Source of the DNA: Squalus acanthias
Taxonomy: Eukaryota
Length of the DNA: 64,000 nt
Assembly (NCBI GenBank): GCA_030390025.1
Contig: CM059432.1
Coordinates: 18,478,001 to 18,542,000 of the forward strand
Direction: 5' to 3'
Position numbers and translations under genes: made by a program. Positions within the stretch are counted from its first letter, which is position 1. Each line of letters starts with the position of its first letter. Of this stretch, positions 38,433-61,268 are shown piece after piece. The notes under the pieces were generated by a model that saw only the letters and a program-made list of their open reading frames with translations, was not told the origin of the DNA and did not search any database.

Positions 38433-39270
38433 TTATTAATGGAAGTGTGGCTGAGAACAATGTTGCCATATTGATAGCAAATCTCACTCCTCAGCCGCCA
38501 TATTTAGTCAGCTTCTGAGAAAGTAAGGAAGACTTGCATTTATATAGAGCCATTCACGACCACCGGACGTCCCAAAGTGCTTTACACCCAATGAAGTACT
38601 TTTTTGAAGTGTAGCCACTGTTGTAATGTTGTAATGCTTCTCAGAGGAAGAAAACAAGTCCTATCAGATCGAAAATGATGGAGGTGAGTTTAATTTGGAG
38701 CATACATCAGGCAGGCGGAGGGCAGAGCTAACACACCACCCTTCTGTGTGGAAGCAGGCACTGACTGTTCCCGTGGACTGGGTGCAATACACAACATTTT
38801 GCGGCCTCCAGGGACATGCAGATGCCCGATATGTGCCACTTTTGCCGCGACATCCCACCAGGAGCATCCTAAGCAGGAAACCTCCTCAACTGTGGCTCAG
38901 TGGGTAGCAGTCTCGCCTCTGAGTCAGAAGGTGGTGGGGGTGAAATTGGGTATCGCCCTGTTTGGGCCGTTAACTTTTGAAATTTTGAAAGTTTAGCCCC
39001 AGGCACTAAGGATTCTGAACTTCTACTAAATTGGGTGTTGGTGCCCCAGGAAGGAAGTGGGGCGCTAAATCAAGCGCTAATGACCTCAGTGGGGCGCTAC
39101 AGGGGCGCTACCAGCAGTGCGCTAAGGAATTTCAGGTGCAATGTATTCAGCAATGATCCTTCACACTGGTTCCTTCCTGCTCTTAAAGGGGAGGTTGCAT
39201 CATTGTGCAGACGATGCTCATTTTCAGCATTGCTGGCTTTGAGGCGACCTGCGAGCAAGTGAATCCCCTG

Positions 39271-48587: not shown

Positions 48588-50832
48588 GCCTGAGACACTG
48601 AGACTATCTCCATTGGTTCAGCGAAGGCAAAGGGGAGATTTAATCAAGGTTTTTAAAATTATGAAGGGTTTTGGTAAAGTGTATAGGAAAAGACAATTTC
48701 CTCTACTTGGGAAGTCAGTGATGAGGGCTCAGCCATGTAAATTTGTCAGTAAGAGAGTTGGAGCAATGATAAAGTAGAGAGAGAGAGATCGTTTCCACTG
48801 GTTGTCAAGACAATAATGAGAGGGAACAAATTTAAGATAATCACAAAGAGAATTAGAAAAACATTCTTGACACAATGGCTGAGAATGTGGAATTCATGGT
48901 CTGTTTTTGAAAGAGTATTAGATAGATGATTGAAAGATACAAACACTGAAGGACAGAAGAAGCAAGCAGGAGGGTGGGAGTGGACAGTTGACACACATGG
49001 GGAAAAAACACTGGCACGAAGTAAAGGCCTGATTCTGTCCTGTAAACATTCTTTGAATCTATGAATAAGTGAACACGCATTGCTTGGCCAGGACAACTGA
49101 ATCCACTTTGTGCATCATTTCAGATTGGCTCCCAAGTGACTTATACCTAAAAGCAGTTATAGATATTTGCATTTTCTGATATCATAATAGTCTCAGATGC
49201 ATAGGTACATTAGGCACAAATAGTTTCAGTAAATTGAAAATAAAACAGATTGTATTCCACTGCACTATCATAGCCGGTCCTGAGACAATCTAAGAGGCTC
49301 ATATGACTACATTTCTTCTCCGTATTTAAAAGCAAATATTAGTCCATGTCTGATGGGTAAAATGGATTTTGAAAAAAATTGCCTTCTTTAAAGAAATTTT
49401 TGTGGTAACTTAATTATTCTATGAAGGCAGTTGCACCTCCTCATCCAGTGATTTTTATAATTTACTTTGCTATCCTTGAGAAAGAAACCACAGACTGTTA
49501 CAGGAACTTTTAGTTTATTTTGTTGAAATGATTGACAAAATGGTTAATATATTCTCTAAGGTCTCTGACCATCGAGCGATAACCCCATCCATTAATTATT
49601 AGAATCAAGGCTAGATCTTCCCGCCTTGGTGCTCCTGCTGCCAGCCTGGAGCACATACTGGGAAATTGTGCACCCCACCCCAGCCCGTGACTTTCCATCC
49701 ATTAACAAAAATGGTTAAAAGATTATGGGCTGAGGGGGGCATAGTTTTGCAATCCTCTCTGGCAAAGAGCACCAACGTGGAAATTCACAGCCTAAAGGCC
49801 TGGGCTTTATTCCTATCTTAAAATTAAATGGAGAAGGAAGAAACTGCCCAGATTGTCCTGCTAAGTAGTGCCGAGGCATTGGCTGAAAGGACGGTGGCCT
49901 CGATATTCCATAGACTGGCAGAACCCCCGTCAAAGTGGCGTAAAAGTCTGAAAATGGCCATTTCCCTGCAGGTTCCGCCAGCCTCACCGGACTTATGGTA
50001 GGAAACTGGTCGAACCCCAATGGAATTTCAGGGCCAGTCTGTTAGAAATGTCACTAAATAATATTCTCGTTAGTAAATTGCACATTCGCAGGGAACTGTT
50101 GGTCCCACAATTTTTGGGGGAATGTGCCCCCAAAATGGATTGATAACCCAATATTACAACCTTTGCTGCTGAAATTGAATTGAAATCTGATGTATTAGGA
50201 AAGAGCAGCGTGTTAATGAGTATCATGGGGTTGGGGGTAATATAGTAGCATGGATAGAGGATTGGTTAATGGACAGAAAACAAAGTAGGGATAAACGGGT
50301 CTTTTTCAGGTTGGCAGGCTGTAACTAGTGGGGTGCCGCAAGGATCAGTATTGGGACCTCAGCTATTTACAATCTATATTAAATACCGAGATGAAGGGAC
50401 CGAGTGTAATGTATCCAAGTTTGCTGACGATACAAAGCTAGGTGGGACAGTAAGCTGTGAGGAGAACACATAGGGGGAAAAATTAGGTCGCGCCCCGTTT
50501 GGGGCGCAAATATCGTCTGGACGCAAAAATTAGCGCCTGGCGCTAATTATCGCCACTGACTGGAAACTTCACTTTTACCGCCCCGGGAGGTGAGTGGAGC
50601 GCTAAATCAGGCGCTGCACACCTGTCTTAAGGCGCAAAGGCCGAGCAGTGAGGCGCTAACTCAGCGCGCGAGCGCAACACAGGTGCTGCCAGTTAGCGAG
50701 GGAACACAGACACACTGGCGCCGGCCAGTTCTTAAAGGGGGGGGCGGCCAACTTGCTCCCCAGCCACACCCTGCTCATTGCAGCCTTGAATCTCGGCCTG
50801 GAGAGACCTGTGAATCCATTTTGCTGCCAAGG

Positions 50833-52802
50833 ATGGAGAGGGTGACAGAACGAGATCAGCGCTTCACCGAGCGGGCCTTGGATGCTCTGGTTGGCGCGGT
50901 GGAGCGCAGAAGATCTATACTCTTCCCTGAGAGTGGCAGGAGGCCTTTGCCACGCGAGTACAGAAGAGTGTGGAGGGAGGTGGCTCAGAGCGTCTCCTCC
51001 AGGAGCATGGTGCCCAGGACCCATGTTCAATGCCGCAAAAAGTTCAACGACCTCACTCGGGTCGTCAGGGTGAGTCGCTTTTTCTCAATACCTCTCCATC
51101 CCTCCATCTCAACCTCACTCTATGGCCAGAGGGTCTTAAAACCCCAATGCACAACACTCATCCAACACCTATGGCCCTTTCATGAAACACACACACACAT
51201 TCCACACTTTGCATACAGTAAGGGCTATTCACCTATGGGAGGCACATCAGGCAAGACCATGGCTGCATACAGTAAGGGCTATTCACCTATGGGAGGCACA
51301 TCAGGCAAGACCATGGCTGTATATTTACTCAGATGCTGTCCTTTTTCTTGCAGGCCAAGCTGGCGCATAATAGGAGACAGCAGCAACGGACAGGTGGAGG
51401 GCGGCCTCAGCTGCAACCCCTCAGCGATCTTGAGGAGCGCGTCCACAGGATTGTGGCAAGCCGGGTGATCGGTCCCGTCGCCACTGGAGACGCTGACCCC
51501 GTTCTGGACAGCAATGGTAAGGTCATCACCTTTTTGTCCTCTGTCCTTCCACTTGTCCCTCACAACACCAGCCTTTGACACTTTCAATCCAACTTGCTAA
51601 CTCGCTGCACTTATTCCTCCCTTACTGCCACCCTGTCCACACGCTAAAGCCACTCTTGTACCTCCCTGCTTTCAGATGGTGATTCACCAGCTGAGGAGAC
51701 GGGCCCTGAAGCTGCCAGTGGGAGTGAAGCTGCAGCCGAGGAGGAAGAGGAAGCCGGAGCATCAGTGCCACCCTCTCCCGAGGAAGCCCATGCCCACACT
51801 GAGAACACGCCTTCCGTGGAGGGGAGCAGGGGGGAAGGGTCTGATGAGGGTGAAGCTCCAGGACCCAACGGGCTGCAGCAACGCCATGGGGGTAGGGAAG
51901 AATGGGGGCCTTCTCCCCAGAGGGAGAGTATGCCAGCGACTCCTACTGCAATGGACGCAGAGGAGGAGCGGCTGATCGCAGAAATGAACACCCAGGCGGT
52001 GGGCATGCACACTGAGCTCATGGGTGCAGTGGGAAGGGTGCCCGAATGCATTGAGTCACTGGCAAGGAGTGTGGAGCACTTCGCTGTAGCACAGGCAGAT
52101 GCCACACTAAAGCTTAGTGCTGCAATTCAGTCACTGACTGCCGTGATCCCATCTCTGACTGCTCTCATGCAGACTCAGATTGAGGCCACGCGAGCACTGA
52201 CTGCTGCCAACCTCGATGGTTTGTTCACATGTCCCCGGGGCTCTCACCGCGCCGCAGCAGGCCAGCAATCTGTGCTCCAGCAGATTGCTCCGGATGCTGA
52301 AGTGCTGCCCCGTGGGAGTGCCAGTGTGTCAGTCGAGCAGGGAGTTGCTGTCCTCTCTCATGATGACAGCATTCCTGCTGCCAACACTGTCACTTCTCCA
52401 CTGCACTTGCCACCGCCTGTAGGAGAGACTGCTGCCGCCCATGCAGAGTTGGTGCAGTCTGCAGCCGGGCCCTCCAGGCCCAGAACTGGTCGAGGCCGTC
52501 CTTCAGGGGCATCTGCAGTGTCAGGGTCTGACAATCAGCAGCCTTCCACCAGCCTTGCTGCAGCCACTGAGGTCCCATTACGGAGGAGCAGTAGGGTTAG
52601 AAGGGGTAAGTGCGCAAGGGAAGGAGATTACCCTCGAAGGGCAAAAAGTAGGAGGTGTGACAAAATGCTGGTCATTTTTATATTAAAGGCCGAGGTTCGT
52701 GGTCCAACTTTTGTCTCGTGTTTTGGACATTATCTCCAGGTTGTGAGAACCAGTTATGTTAATGACTGTTTTTTTGTGTTTATTTCTATGAGTTTGTCAT
52801 GA
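50833..52802 (+). CDS. Harbinger Myb/SANT-like (trihelix) DNA-binding protein; exons 50833-51069, 51354-51516, 51676-52802; ~508 aa
   Basis: QRFTERALDALV..WREVAQSV..RTHVQCRKKFNDL; GT-AG introns (phase 0 and 1) join into one open frame; acidic region and heptad-like C-terminal half. Confidence 0.85.
51211..51318. repeat. Perfect 54-bp tandem duplication in intron 1
   Basis: 51211-51264 is identical to 51265-51318. Confidence 0.95.
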
Positions 52803-52963
52803 GGAAATGACACACACAGAGTTTGTAAAATAAATAAGTTTTTGTATTCAAAATATACATGTTTGGTGTTTGGAATCATTGGTGCCTTGGCCGGCTTAGG
52901 GGTTGCGTGCTGGGTTCATTGATGTTTTTAGCAATGGCAGAAGCCATTTCCACAGCAGGGGCC

Positions 52964-54124
52964 CTAGAAGCGGCTTGCTATCAGCCGTTGACGGACGGCC
53001 CTTGCAGTTTCACCATTGTGGGCCACCCTCCCGCCTTGGTGCTGCTGATGATCATCCTCCTCGTCCTCTTCCTCCTCTTCCTCCTCCTCCTCTGGTGGTG
53101 CTCCAAGGCCTGGTGGCATTGGCTGGGTCCTGACGATTGCCATGTTATGCAACATGCAGCACACAACTACGAAGTTGGATACTCGCTCAGGCGAGTACTG
53201 CAGGGCTCCTCCAGAATGGTCGAGACAGCGGAACCGTTGCTTCAGCATGCCGATTGTGCGCTCAATGATGTTCCTGGTAGCTTGATGGCTCTCGTTGTAC
53301 CGCAGCTCAGCAGGGGTGTTGGGCGTACGGAGCGGTGTCATCAGCCAGGTGCTCAATGGATACCCCTTGTCCCCGAGAAGCCAACCAACTGGCTGATGCG
53401 GTGCCTCGAAAAGTTCTGCCACAGTAGTCTGGTGCAGGATGAAAGCATCGTGGCAGCTGTCAGGATAGTGGGCATTGACAGCGAGTATCAGCTGTCTGTG
53501 GTCACAGACCAACTGAACATTCAAGGAATGGAACCCCTTTCTGTTCCGGAATTCCTCGGCATTCTCATGTGGAGCACGCAAAGCCACATGCGTGCAGTCA
53601 ATGGCGCCCTGCACCATGGGGAAGCCCGCTATCCTCACAAAGCCCAGAGCGCGGTCACGCTGCTTATCTAGGGTCATGGGGAAAGAGATGAACTCTCGTC
53701 TCCTTTTAAAGAGGGCATTTGTGACCTGCCGGATGCAGCAATGCACCGCAAACTGGGAGATATTGGCGAGGTCCCCAGCAGCAGCTTGAAATGAGCCAGT
53801 AGCATAGAAGTTGAGAGCCACTGTGACCTTCACTGCCACCGACAGAGACGTCCTGGACCTCAGTTGAGGCTGCAGATCTGGCTGCAGCAGGTGGTAGAGC
53901 TCAGTGACCACCTCCTTGTTGAATCGCAGCCTTCGCAAACACAGCTCCTCAGACATATGAATGTAGGAGAGCTGTTCACGATATACCCTGGGAGGGTAAG
54001 CTCTCCTGTACATACGCCTGTTGGCCCTCCTCCGTCTGGCCATCATTGCCACTCTCTCTCTGCATCTCTGTGTCCTCCGATTCAGCTGGAGCAGGACGAC
54101 GCCCCCATTCAGTGCAGCCCCCAT
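52964..54124 (-). CDS. PIF/Harbinger DDE transposase (HARBI1-like), 386 aa from ATG at 54124
   Basis: Uninterrupted ORF with GAIDCTH, NRKGFHSLNVQ, SCHDAFI, LLGDKGYP, RNIIERTIGMLKQRFRCL, CCMLHN; acidic tail. Confidence 0.95.
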   Translation of the reverse strand: MGAALNGGVVLLQLNRRTQRCRERVAMMARRRRANRRMYRRAYPPRVYREQLSYIHMSEELCLRRLRFNKEVVTELYHLLQPDLQPQLRSRTSLSVAVKVTVALNFYATGSFQAAAGDLANISQFAVHCCIRQVTNALFKRRREFISFPMTLDKQRDRALGFVRIAGFPMVQGAIDCTHVALRAPHENAEEFRNRKGFHSLNVQLVCDHRQLILAVNAHYPDSCHDAFILHQTTVAELFEAPHQPVGWLLGDKGYPLSTWLMTPLRTPNTPAELRYNESHQATRNIIERTIGMLKQRFRCLDHSGGALQYSPERVSNFVVVCCMLHNMAIVRTQPMPPGLGAPPEEEEEEEEEDEEDDHQQHQGGRVAHNGETARAVRQRLIASRF

Positions 54125-56169
54125 AGTCTCTTTGCAAGCAAAGTTATGAAGGACAGCAACCAAAGTACCAGCGAAGTTAGGATCAGTAGGCAAAACTACC
54201 TCACAAAGCGTTGACTCAATGCAGAAGTCTCTCTTTCTCTCTCTCCGAATCTCTCTCTCTCTCTCAGAACGAGTGGTGCAAAAATGTCAACCACAGAAAA
54301 AGACAGGAAGAGGCCCCCTTTAAATAGCGCCCCCCCCCAGCCCCACAGCGATTGATAGCGTTCCAGTCTTCCGGTCGTTGGATGCGCCAGGCGGTAAGGC
54401 AGGGGGCGCCACTCAATTTCCGCTCCGGGGCGCCACAAGGGCGTTGCACCATGGAATGACGTCACAATCTGCGCGCGCAGGTGGTCGCGGCGGTAAAGTT
54501 TAGGGCCGCCGCACAATGTCTAGTTAAGTTCCCGAGCGGCGCAAACATCGCTGCGCCCGGGCGCTAGCGGCTTTGCGCCCCATTAGCGCCCTCTTAAGGC
54601 GCTAACGGGAGGCGCAACCAACTGAATTTTTCCCCCAAAGAGTCTGCAAAGGGATATAGATAGACTAAGTGAGTGGGCAGTAAGGTGGCAGATGGAGTGT
54701 AATGTAGGGAAATGTGAGGTTATTCACTTTGGTAGGAAGAATAGAAAAACACAATATTTTTTAAATGGTGAGAAACTTTCAAATGTTGGTGTTCAGAGAT
54801 ATTTGGGTGTCCTCGTGTAAGAAACACAGAAAGCTAGCATGCAGGTACAGCAACCAATAAGGAAGGCAAATGGCATGTTGGCCTTTATTGCAAGGGGGTT
54901 GGAGTATAAGAGTAAGGAAGTCTTGCTACAATTGTACAGGGCCTTGGTGAGACCACACCTGGAGTACTGTGCACAGTTCTGGTCTCCTTATCTAAGGAAG
55001 GATATACTTGCTTTGGAGGCGGTGCAACGAAGGTTCACTAAATTGATTCCTGGGATGAGAGGGCTGTCCTATGATGAGAGATTGTGTAGAATGGGCCTAT
55101 ACTCTCTGGAGTTTAGAAGAATAAGAGGTGATCTCATTGAAACATACAAGATTCTGAAGGGGATTGACAGGGTAGATGCTGAGAGGTTGTTTCCCCTGGC
55201 TGGAGTGTCTAGAACTCGGGGGCATAGTCTCAGGATAAGGGGTAGGCCATTTAAGACTGAGATGAAGAGGAATTTCTTCACTCAGAGGGTTGTGAATCTT
55301 TGGAATTCTCTGCCCCAGAGGGCTGTGAATGCTGAGTCTTTGAGTATATTTACGGCCGAGATAGATAGATTTTTGGACTCTAGGGGAATCAAGGGATATG
55401 GAGATGGGGCGGGAAAGTGGAGTTGAGGTCGATGATCAGCCATGATCTTATTGAATGGCGGAGCAGGCTCGAGGGGCTGTATGGCCTTCTCCTGCTTTTA
55501 TTTCTTATGTTCTTATGTTCTTATCACTGCAGCTGTTAGAGCTTAATAGTGTGTTCCTACCTGTATTTGTTTATGTCATGTTAAAATGATGAAAGCCTTG
55601 TGCAGTGATCTATATACAGCAGAGCGCTCGGTTACTTCTGTGCACTTCTGTAGCCTGAATATTATACTCATGACAGTGATTGATGATGAATGGTGCCTTT
55701 TGCAGTAGCTGTTACTTGTAATCCTTGCAGTCATAACCTCTCTGGAAATGCACAGCACGGCACTGAAGTCCCAGGTTTGACAGGATCAGATCCAAATGAC
55801 AATTTAGGACGACAAATCAGCATGAGTAACATTTAGAGATTGAGCGCGACCCTGTTATATGTCAGAAAGAAAAATATTATTATACTTAACTGGGCCTTTC
55901 ATATCGTCGTGCTCCCACACCATGATCAGACCATCCCTTGAGGGCAGGAATGCTGACTAACTGTACACTAAGGAAGACCAAGTTGTCAATTTGCTTGATA
56001 ACCACACAGGGATACTTAGGTGAATCTTGATTCCAGCTGTGTTTTAACAGGTTACCCAATTCTTTGTTTCCTTCACCCAGGGCTCAATGGTAAGCTTATT
56101 TGAGTGAGTCAGCCCACTATTGTTTCTGGTGTACGGGTTTGAATCCATTTCAGGAGAATTGAACGAAAG

Positions 56170-60630: not shown

Positions 60631-61268
60631 GGGGGGGGAAATTTGGTTGCTTTGCACCTCCCGTTAGCCCGAAGAGGACGCTAACGGGGTGCAAAGAAAC
60701 TACTGCCCGGGCGCGGTGCCGCCAACGCCTCCCGCGAAATTCAGCGGGAGATTAGCGGTGGCGGTAACCATTAGTGCCGCGCGGCATTGCGCCGTCAACG
60801 ATGATGTCATCGCCGTGTGCAGCACCCCGCTCGCGCCCCGGCCGCGATCTTCGGGAGCGCTCCATGACTTACCGCCGGACGCTATGTCCGACGGGGTCAG
60901 GGAGTCCTACCTGCGGCCAGGGCAGCGCTAATTAAAGGCGAGGTGCCGGGCAGCCATTTTTGTTGCTGGCCGCCTGCCAGCACCTGCCCCCATTGCCGTT
61001 CCCGGCCTCCTGACCAGCCCCGCCGCGGAGTGCCGGCTGCGCTCCGTGAGCCCGGCACTTCCCTTGAGTGCCGGGCTCTTTTGCTGGCACTCCGATCCCT
61101 GGTGGCTCAGCTGGGTCCCGGGTCGAGCTGCGCAAAGCCCCTCCCCTTTAAGAAGGGGAGGAAGGCCTGCAGTACCGCGGCACGTAGCGCCGCGATATTC
61201 CCTCGCAGCTTCCAGTAGCGGCCCACTTCCCTCTTGGGGCGCTACCGATGAAACAGAATTTTTTCTCA
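60631..61268 (-). mobile_element. Non-autonomous derivative (MITE) related to the intact Harbinger, reverse orientation
   Basis: GGGGGGGAAATTT start; blocks resembling both subterminal regions of 50473-54636; GCGCTA motifs. Confidence 0.7.

What the first reader, a model, noticed from the sequence alone, without database searches (positions are those of the whole stretch)
50473..54636. Complete two-gene Harbinger transposon that looks potentially active in a shark-type genome
Seen: perfect 12-bp TIRs; a clean insertion splitting a little-decayed CR1; a stop-free 386-aa transposase with the conserved acidic motifs (IDCTH, SCHD, GDKGY, IERT); and a convergent Myb/SANT-like gene whose three GT-AG exons splice into one open ~508-aa frame. 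Known: PIF/Harbinger transposition needs both proteins, the zebrafish Harbinger3_DR system had to be reconstructed from inactive copies, and HARBI1/NAIF1 are domesticated from this superfamily. Inference: this may be a natural, near-functional vertebrate Harbinger from an undescribed family. One caution: the usual PGSxHD motif reads PDSCHD here.
Basis: partly seen in the sequence, partly recalled or inferred. Interest (0 to 1): 0.85.

Follow-up and report, generated by a model that had tools for sequence, protein, structure and literature searches.

The report
Decaying copy of abundant shark Harbinger
This is a real two-gene cut-and-paste transposon, one of roughly 1,700 near-identical but mutating copies in a shark-type genome; this copy carries its own damage in both genes and is likely dead, so it is mostly ordinary, apart from an unexplained excess of mismatched insertion scars in the family.

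Summary
The element is real: 12-bp TIRs, a 386-aa DDE transposase and a three-exon Myb-like gene, inserted in a CR1 fragment. It is not a special near-functional copy. The genome holds about 1,700 transposase copies and about 22,000 right ends, most on ~893-bp non-autonomous elements. Among 115 long copies, divergence from consensus averages 0.8%, no two differ at fewer than 20 sites, and private changes are near neutral (dN/dS 0.83-1.01, 84 copies). This copy has 9 transposase substitutions, including a private G222D and C77Y at conserved sites. Its "508-aa" Myb frame results from a 1-bp deletion that replaces the basic C-terminus (family: 458 aa). 41 of 84 copies keep both frames, so it is a below-average one. 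No splice junction was seen. The family prefers a palindromic target like zebrafish Harbinger3_DR, with an A/T-rich 3-bp duplication. One open lead: 19 of 117 long copies, this one included (ATA/AAA), have mismatched duplications against about 1-5 expected; carry-over of the donor's 3 bases is a candidate cause, unproven. The scan already noted decaying Harbingers and their target preference elsewhere in this genome.

The parts
50473..54636 (.). Full-length PIF/Harbinger-type element, 4,164 bp
   Evidence: Ends shared with 120 of 125 long loci examined; 0.82-0.89% from family consensus
50470..50472 (+). Left half of target duplication, ATA (differs from the CR1 target AAA)
   Evidence: paralogous empty CR1 sites read AAA in 5 of 8 local hits
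54637..54639 (+). Right half of target duplication, AAA (the original CR1 triplet)
   Evidence: 85 of the first 100 listed junctions on this side of the same CR1 site read AAA
50473..50484 (+). Left TIR, 12 bp
   Evidence: 3,571 exact matches of the 24-bp left end in the genome
54625..54636 (-). Right TIR, 12 bp
   Evidence: 18,102 exact matches of the 26-bp right end
50485..50722 (.). Left subterminal region, CpG-rich, with repeated GCGCTAA motifs (inferred Myb-like binding sites)
   Evidence: 4 motifs in the first 250 bp of the consensus, 0 in 3,636 internal bp; binding not tested
54307..54624 (.). Right subterminal region with the same motif
   Evidence: 3 motifs in the last 330 bp
50833..51069 (+). 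Myb/SANT-like gene, exon 1 (trihelix domain)
   Evidence: PF13873 E 1.3e-10
51070..51353 (+). Intron 1 with two 54-bp tandem units at 51210-51317 (1 to 5 units across copies)
   Evidence: both introns keep GT-AG in 35 of 37 copies
51354..51516 (+). Myb-like gene, exon 2
   Evidence: Join supported by homology to P0008
51676..52651 (+). Myb-like gene, exon 3 to the family stop; acidic stretch, a region alignable to P0121, basic tail
   Evidence: in this copy the frame runs on to 52802
52603..52607 (+). 1-bp deletion in a G-run: frameshift that replaces the last 14 residues (basic tail) with 64 others
   Evidence: shared with 1 other of 37 copies
52964..54124 (-). Transposase ORF, 386 aa; D176, D252 and E288 present; 9 substitutions against consensus
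   Evidence: assignment of the triad is recalled, not tested
53460..53460 (-). Private G222D in the PGSxHD motif
   Evidence: Gly in 82 of 84 copies and in 104 of 113 homologues with a residue there
53895..53895 (-). Private C77Y
   Evidence: Cys in 93 of 106 homologues
50220..50472 (+). Host CR1 fragment, upstream part (start approximate)
   Evidence: 9 local paralogue alignments span the junction
54637..55510 (+). Host CR1 fragment, downstream part to the 3' tail

Best explanation
This is one mutating copy of a high-copy, two-gene PIF/Harbinger transposon family in a shark-type genome; it is likely dead as a source of transposase, and the family's main burst likely ended long ago. Shown: anatomy, copy numbers, target preference, neutral decay and the lesions of this copy. 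Inferred from Harbinger3_DR and Ping/Pong: the Myb-like protein would bind the repeated subterminal motifs and bring the transposase into the nucleus and onto the ends. The transposase would excise the element and insert it at a palindromic site of the form (A/T)A(A/G)ACAC-WWW-GTGT(C/T)T(A/T), duplicating the central 3 bases. The same proteins likely also moved about 20,000 ~893-bp non-autonomous elements with the same ends. After landing in a CR1 site that matches this palindrome, the copy mutated without selection. Its ends are intact, so it could in principle still be moved in trans.
For: Copy number: 1,464 exact matches of a 26-bp transposase stretch, about 1,720 after correction; 18,102 right ends. 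Decay: mean 0.81% from consensus, nearest pair 20 differences, n=115; private dN/dS 0.83-0.85 (transposase) and 0.98-1.01 (Myb), with 10 and 17 new stops, n=84; about a third of substitutions are CpG transitions. This copy: G222D, C77Y, frameshift; nearest neighbour 45 differences away. Target: symmetrised logo from 71 perfect sites, A at -5 in 119 of 142 and C at -2 in 105 of 142, against AAACACCWGGTCTTT for Harbinger3_DR (PMC3016246, passage read). Age: 0.28% private non-CpG changes is about 2-4 million generations at 7-14e-10 per generation (rate borrowed from another shark, PMC10587355, passages read).
Against: The copies were picked as best matches, about 115 of roughly 1,700, so a small still-active subfamily could be missed. 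41 of 84 copies keep both frames and canonical splice sites, and one has a transposase identical to consensus. The effect of G222D and of the changed Myb tail on activity was not measured; 5 of 113 annotated homologues also have Asp there (probably decayed copies, not checked). The mutation rate is from another species and has a tenfold interval. Expression was not excluded.
Confidence: 0.85

Rival explanations
1. The family is still mobile at a low level through a few intact master copies, although this copy is not one of them.
For: 41 of 84 sampled copies keep both frames; the least-mutated copies are 0.34% from consensus; contigs of runs guessed to be RNA cover both genes.
Against: No pair under 20 differences among 115 copies, and the search seeded with one of the least-mutated copies returned nothing close to identical. 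No splice joint among the 15 of 87 joints shown, and one contig of run X9 crosses intron 2 unspliced.
Confidence: 0.15
2. This very copy is a naturally functional autonomous element.
For: Both frames are open, D176/D252/E288 and splice sites are present, and the TIRs are perfect.
Against: Private G222D and C77Y at conserved sites, 9 changes in all; frameshifted Myb tail; no copy descends from it (nearest 45 differences); mismatched target duplication. Non-matching duplications lowered mPing transposition in yeast (PMC4561436, passages read).
Confidence: 0.04
3. The pair is a domesticated gene pair like HARBI1/NAIF1.
For: The closest database proteins are all labelled 'putative nuclease HARBI1'.
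Against: Over a thousand dispersed copies with TIRs and duplications, and neutral dN/dS. The labels are automatic.
Confidence: 0.01

Closest known systems
Harbinger3_DR / Harbinger3N_DR of zebrafish (seen through passages of PMC3016246, PMC2836001, PMC9392472; the primary paper was not held)
   Same: Two separate genes (DDE transposase, Myb-like protein), 3-bp duplication, about 15-bp palindromic target with AAACAC/GTCTTT-like arms, non-autonomous partners.
   Different: The centre of the target is A/T-rich and loose (ATA 21, TTA 20, TAT 18, AAA 14, TTT 14, TAA 12 of 156; CAG+CTG only 4), not CWG. Sequence identity to Harbinger3_DR was not measured.
NuwaII group of the PHIS superfamily (PMC4482050, sections read)
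   Same: GG-starting short TIRs, two ORFs with Myb/SANT, conserved C before and G after a 3-bp duplication, vertebrate hosts.
   Different: NuwaII is described as C|TNA|G; here only about a quarter of duplications are TNA. Tree placement against Nuwa families was not tested.
Harbinger-Snek of sea kraits (PMC8437027, part 1 and passages read)
   Same: A natural vertebrate Harbinger burst with many copies that keep both frames, plus deleted and short derivatives, and few near-identical copies.
   Different: Harbinger-Snek arrived by horizontal transfer and fills 8-12% of the genome. This family fills roughly 0.7% by my estimate, and its closest proteins are from other sharks and rays.
Rice Ping/Pong/mPing (PMC4561436, PMC11254759, PMC2836001; passages read)
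   Same: Two-protein mechanism and amplified non-autonomous elements; the model of a staggered cut in the duplication is borrowed from here.
   Different: mPing is strictly TTA/TAA and demonstrably active; here the duplication is degenerate and activity is not shown.

Membership tests
PIF/Harbinger (PHIS superfamily) | DDE transposase of the Harbinger type | tested here: met
   PF13359 E 3.7e-38, PF04827 E 4.2e-10; 327 homologues at E<=1e-30
PIF/Harbinger (PHIS superfamily) | Second gene with a Myb/SANT domain | tested here: met
   PF13873 E 1.3e-10 on exon 1; homology across the first splice join
PIF/Harbinger (PHIS superfamily) | Short TIRs starting with G or A, element about 4 kb | tested here: met
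   12-bp TIR, 4,164 bp; family average about 4,124 bp in PMC4482050
PIF/Harbinger (PHIS superfamily) | 3-bp target site duplication | tested here: met
   98 of 117 long and 58 of 65 short elements have a perfect 3-bp duplication; this copy's is imperfect
PIF/Harbinger (PHIS superfamily) | Extended palindromic target preference | tested here: met
   Logo from 71 sites; 181 exact junctions at one CR1 position
PIF/Harbinger (PHIS superfamily) | Both proteins required for transposition | not testable with these tools
   Known for Harbinger3_DR and Ping/Pong (PMC2836001, passages)
PIF/Harbinger group in the narrow sense of PMC4482050 | Duplication is TWA | tested here: not met
   TTA+TAA are 32 of 156 perfect duplications
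NuwaI group | Duplication is CWG | tested here: not met
   4 of 156
NuwaII group | Target C|TNA|G | tested here: inconclusive
   Flanking C and G in 105 of 142 symmetrised sites; TNA in 36 of 156 duplications
NuwaI/NuwaII clade | Transposase groups with Nuwa families in a tree | not tested
   No Repbase or Nuwa sequences were available; the tree holds only database proteins
Active autonomous element | Both proteins intact in this copy | tested here: not met
   G222D, C77Y and Myb frameshift
Active autonomous element | Near-identical recent copies | tested here: not met
   Minimum 20 differences among 115 sampled copies; sample is about 7% of copies
Active autonomous element | Spliced transcripts of both genes | tested here: inconclusive
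   contigs only, RNA status guessed, 15 of 87 joints shown, none a splice
Domesticated gene (HARBI1/NAIF1/MSANTD type) | Single copy, no TIRs, purifying selection | tested here: not met

The most novel reading that the evidence does not exclude
The family records its own chemistry in the genome: like mPing, the excised element leaves with the 3 bases of its old target duplication as an overhang, and in roughly one insertion in seven the donor's bases overwrite one half of the new duplication. The loose WWW target makes this visible, as in this copy (ATA in place of AAA) and in L137 (TAT in place of AAA at the same CR1 site). That would be natural, genome-wide evidence for staggered cleavage with donor carry-over in a vertebrate Harbinger, testable on about 20,000 insertions.
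Probability: 0.3. Interest if true: 0.6.

Novelty: new member of a known kind. Interest (0 to 1): 0.3.

Why it matters
For the copy itself, little: it is a decaying member of a known superfamily. At family level there are three modest points. (1) A 2022 survey found no Harbingers in the elephant shark and asked for other cartilaginous fish to be checked (PMC9179366, passages read); this genome has a large family, and sharks and rays hold many related proteins under automatic HARBI1 labels. (2) With copies under 1% from consensus and a 15-bp target preference, the family is an easy source for a second vertebrate two-component Harbinger system beside Harbinger3_DR. (3) The excess of mismatched target duplications, if it survives a read-level check, would bear on how Harbinger transposases cut and join; no solved structure related by sequence was found.

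Tried and rejected
Left-end-only carry-over: suggested by the first 22 flagged long copies, rejected. A C/G centre occurs at 1,693 of 18,102 right ends (9.4%) and at 9 of the first 100 left ends (hand count), and local empty sites show the foreign half on either side. At the CR1 hot spot, foreign triplets were 10 of 56 at left ends and 4 of 44 at right ends, P=0.26. The 21 TAA junctions looked like carry-over but none pairs with a downstream CR1 junction, so they are probably another target; not used. Polishing of ends towards the family majority as the cause of mismatches: private changes are not depleted at the ends (0.44% and 0.65% in the terminal 30 bp against 0.27% in the body), so not supported; the raised rate fits error-prone repair instead. 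Age dependence of mismatches: none seen (median 16 against 13 private changes, P=0.30). Expression: inconclusive. Presence in other species: runs of six coded organisms hold 49-82% of the words, but two sister runs of organism E hold none, so this was not used for dating or transfer. Solved structures: no hit better than E 0.11. Myb homologue search with exon 1 gave one hit. The careful tree did not finish; the quick tree of 44 rows, chosen by hand from 120 hits, was used. Ten paper searches found no description of a shark Harbinger family or of mismatched Harbinger duplications; most results were seen as listings only, the library lacks most subscription papers, and no supplements were read. 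Repbase and Dfam were not available. No fold or complex job was sent.

Full report
Observation. The element spans 50473-54636 with perfect 12-bp TIRs. The minus-strand ORF 54124-52964 gives 386 aa and matches DDE_Tnp_4 at E 3.7e-38; exon 1 of the plus-strand gene matches Myb_DNA-bind_5 at E 1.3e-10. The three proposed exons have GT-AG borders and join into 508 codons. The spliced form aligns to a sawshark protein (P0008) over 112 residues without gaps, the unspliced form over only 74, which supports the first join; the second join rests on conserved signals and a weak alignment to P0121. Removing the element and one triplet restores the CR1 frame. The duplication is imperfect: ATA left, AAA right.

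Host and relatives. The window lies in a 3.7-Gb assembly. The closest proteins, 55-70% identical, come from sharks and rays and carry automatic HARBI1 labels. In a quick tree of 44 rows the transposase sits in a 9-row clade (support 96) of sawshark and ray proteins. 'Shark-type' is therefore supported; I did not try to name the sample.

Family size. Exact pattern counts over the whole assembly gave 1,464 for a 26-bp transposase stretch, 3,571 for the 24-bp left end and 18,102 for the 26-bp right end; reversed controls gave 0. Correcting by how often sampled copies match exactly gives about 1,720 transposase copies, possibly including close sister subfamilies, and about 22,000 right ends. Of 80 right ends taken in genome order, leaving out some already seen to be long, 69 had a left end within 1 kb, mostly at 893 bp. 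These short elements are 77-87% identical to the long one inside but share its ends; they fall into several subfamilies, the largest (30 of 66) with 1.9% mean pairwise distance.

Age and selection. I fetched 124 long loci from four best-match searches; with the window, 120 of 125 had both ends and 115 of normal length were aligned. They average 0.81% from consensus (0.34-2.5%), and the closest pair differs at 20 sites. In the 84 aligned first, changes seen in one or two copies give dN/dS 0.83-0.85 for the transposase and 0.98-1.01 for the Myb gene, with 10 and 17 new stops. 67 of 84 keep the transposase frame, 54 the Myb frame with splice sites, 41 both. This is the picture of a burst followed by unselected decay. 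Private non-CpG change is 0.28% per site; at the epaulette shark rate (7e-10 per generation, interval 1.4-14.1e-10; PMC10587355) that is about 4 million generations, 2 million at the upper bound. The rate is borrowed and the sample favours young copies, so a small active subfamily is not excluded.

This copy. It differs from the 37-copy consensus at 34 sites, most of them private. Nine change the transposase. G222D is unique among 84 copies and falls where 104 of 113 homologues have Gly; C77Y falls where 93 of 106 have Cys. The family's Myb-like protein is 458 aa and ends in a basic tail; here a lost G at 52603-52607 replaces the last 14 residues with 64 others. No sampled copy is closer than 45 differences, so it shows no offspring.

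Mechanism. Shown: insertion sites form a palindrome, about (A/T)A(A/G)ACAC-WWW-GTGT(C/T)T(A/T), with arms like those of the Harbinger3_DR target AAACACCWGGTCTTT (PMC3016246) but an A/T-rich centre. The CR1 position used here fits it and was hit repeatedly in both orientations (181 exact junctions on one side). A GCGCTAA motif occurs 7 times near the ends and never inside. Inferred from Harbinger3_DR and Ping/Pong (PMC2836001, PMC9392472, passages): the Myb-like protein binds the ends, binds and imports the transposase, and the transposase cuts and pastes; short elements are moved in trans.

Expression. Twenty of 24 listed runs hold the stretch or part of it. I laid four (X9, X14, X2, X16), all contigs, with RNA status guessed. 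All 15 joints shown of 87 were empty-CR1 joins; none was a splice, and one X9 contig crosses intron 2 unspliced. This neither shows nor excludes transcription.

Mismatched duplications. After dropping three long copies with unclear borders (L035, L059, L063), 19 of 117 have non-identical halves: 12 differ at one base, 6 at two, 1 at three. Point mutation predicts 1.2 at the A/T-site rate and 5.2 at the whole-element rate (P 1e-6 for the latter). L137 sits at the same CR1 position as the window copy and reads TAT/AAA, while L176 there reads AAA/AAA. In an independent genome-order sample, 29 of 62 left ends with a C/G-centred triplet had a C/G-centred exact right end, against a baseline of 21 of 28 left ends with any exact right end (P=0.02). 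Against a large effect: in short elements 7 of 65 mismatch (four dropped for unclear borders or nesting), not above expectation at an assumed 1.2% rate (P=0.19); at the CR1 hot spot 17 of 18 fully paired insertions match; an empty site was found locally for only 8 of 33 flagged cases. mPing is modelled to be cut in a staggered way within its duplication (PMC4561436) and carries the donor TTA/TAA into Cas9 breaks (PMC11254759), so donor carry-over is a plausible cause. Error-prone repair of the 3-base gaps is an equally live rival, since private changes are about twice as dense at the element ends; recombination between copies and assembly errors at repeat borders are not excluded.

Novelty. 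Two-gene Harbingers with intact frames are known: 88 'potential active' families in PMC4482050 and 269 intact copies in a sea krait (PMC8437027). My ten paper searches found no account of a shark family, and PMC9179366 reports none in the elephant shark, so this is probably an unpublished member of a known kind; Repbase and Dfam could not be checked. Earlier notes of this scan report a frameshifted copy, a decaying pair and the target preference elsewhere in the same genome; I saw them after forming my reading and did not check that they concern the same family.

Verdict. Real element, ordinary decaying copy (confidence 0.85). Interest 0.3, carried mainly by the mismatch lead and the family's size.

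Noticed in passing
Proteins P0027, P0029, P0070; P0045, P0048; P0006, P0013, P0014, P0016, P0018, P0021; P0010, P0012; P0004, P0005: Several short-branch clades of Harbinger-like transposases are shared between distant sharks and rays, and some lack the acidic residues (P0029, P0048). They look like cartilaginous-fish-specific domesticated transposase genes hidden under the HARBI1 label.
   Followed up: no
L176-L255: A ~893-bp non-autonomous family with the same ends makes up most of the 18,102 right ends; several subfamilies differ in the left terminal 30 bp.
   Followed up: partly
L037, L078, L083, L084, L116, L123, L133 and others: Many insertions fall at one spot of an AGAGTCAT-type simple repeat, which matches the target palindrome; another repeat site was hit at least seven times in both orientations (L060, L113, L107, L115, L122, L253, L255).
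   Followed up: partly
window 51210-51317: A 54-bp tandem unit in intron 1 varies from 1 to 5 units among 115 copies (14, 62, 30, 8, 1) although the family is under 1% diverged.
   Followed up: partly
window 52779-52834: Polyadenylation-like signals lie on opposite strands (52829 on +, 52779-52784 on -), so the two convergent transcripts would overlap at their 3' ends; both signals are in the consensus.
   Followed up: no
window 50715-50741 and 54314-54340: Similar TATA-like stretches face inward upstream of each gene (70% complementary arms).
   Followed up: no
L034, L046, L049, L060: Related ends at 83-91% identity lie next to long copies, pointing to older sister families and nesting; L160, L162 and L174 are about 93% identical over the last 800 bp.
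   Followed up: no
window 38936-38951 and 60632-60647: Two weaker matches to the terminal motif (2 mismatches) may be ends of other Harbinger-type elements.
   Followed up: no
runs X6-X8, X13-X18: Runs coded as five other organisms hold about half of the element's words; X16 contigs match at about 98%. Shared ancestry, transfer or sample mixing were not told apart.
   Followed up: partly
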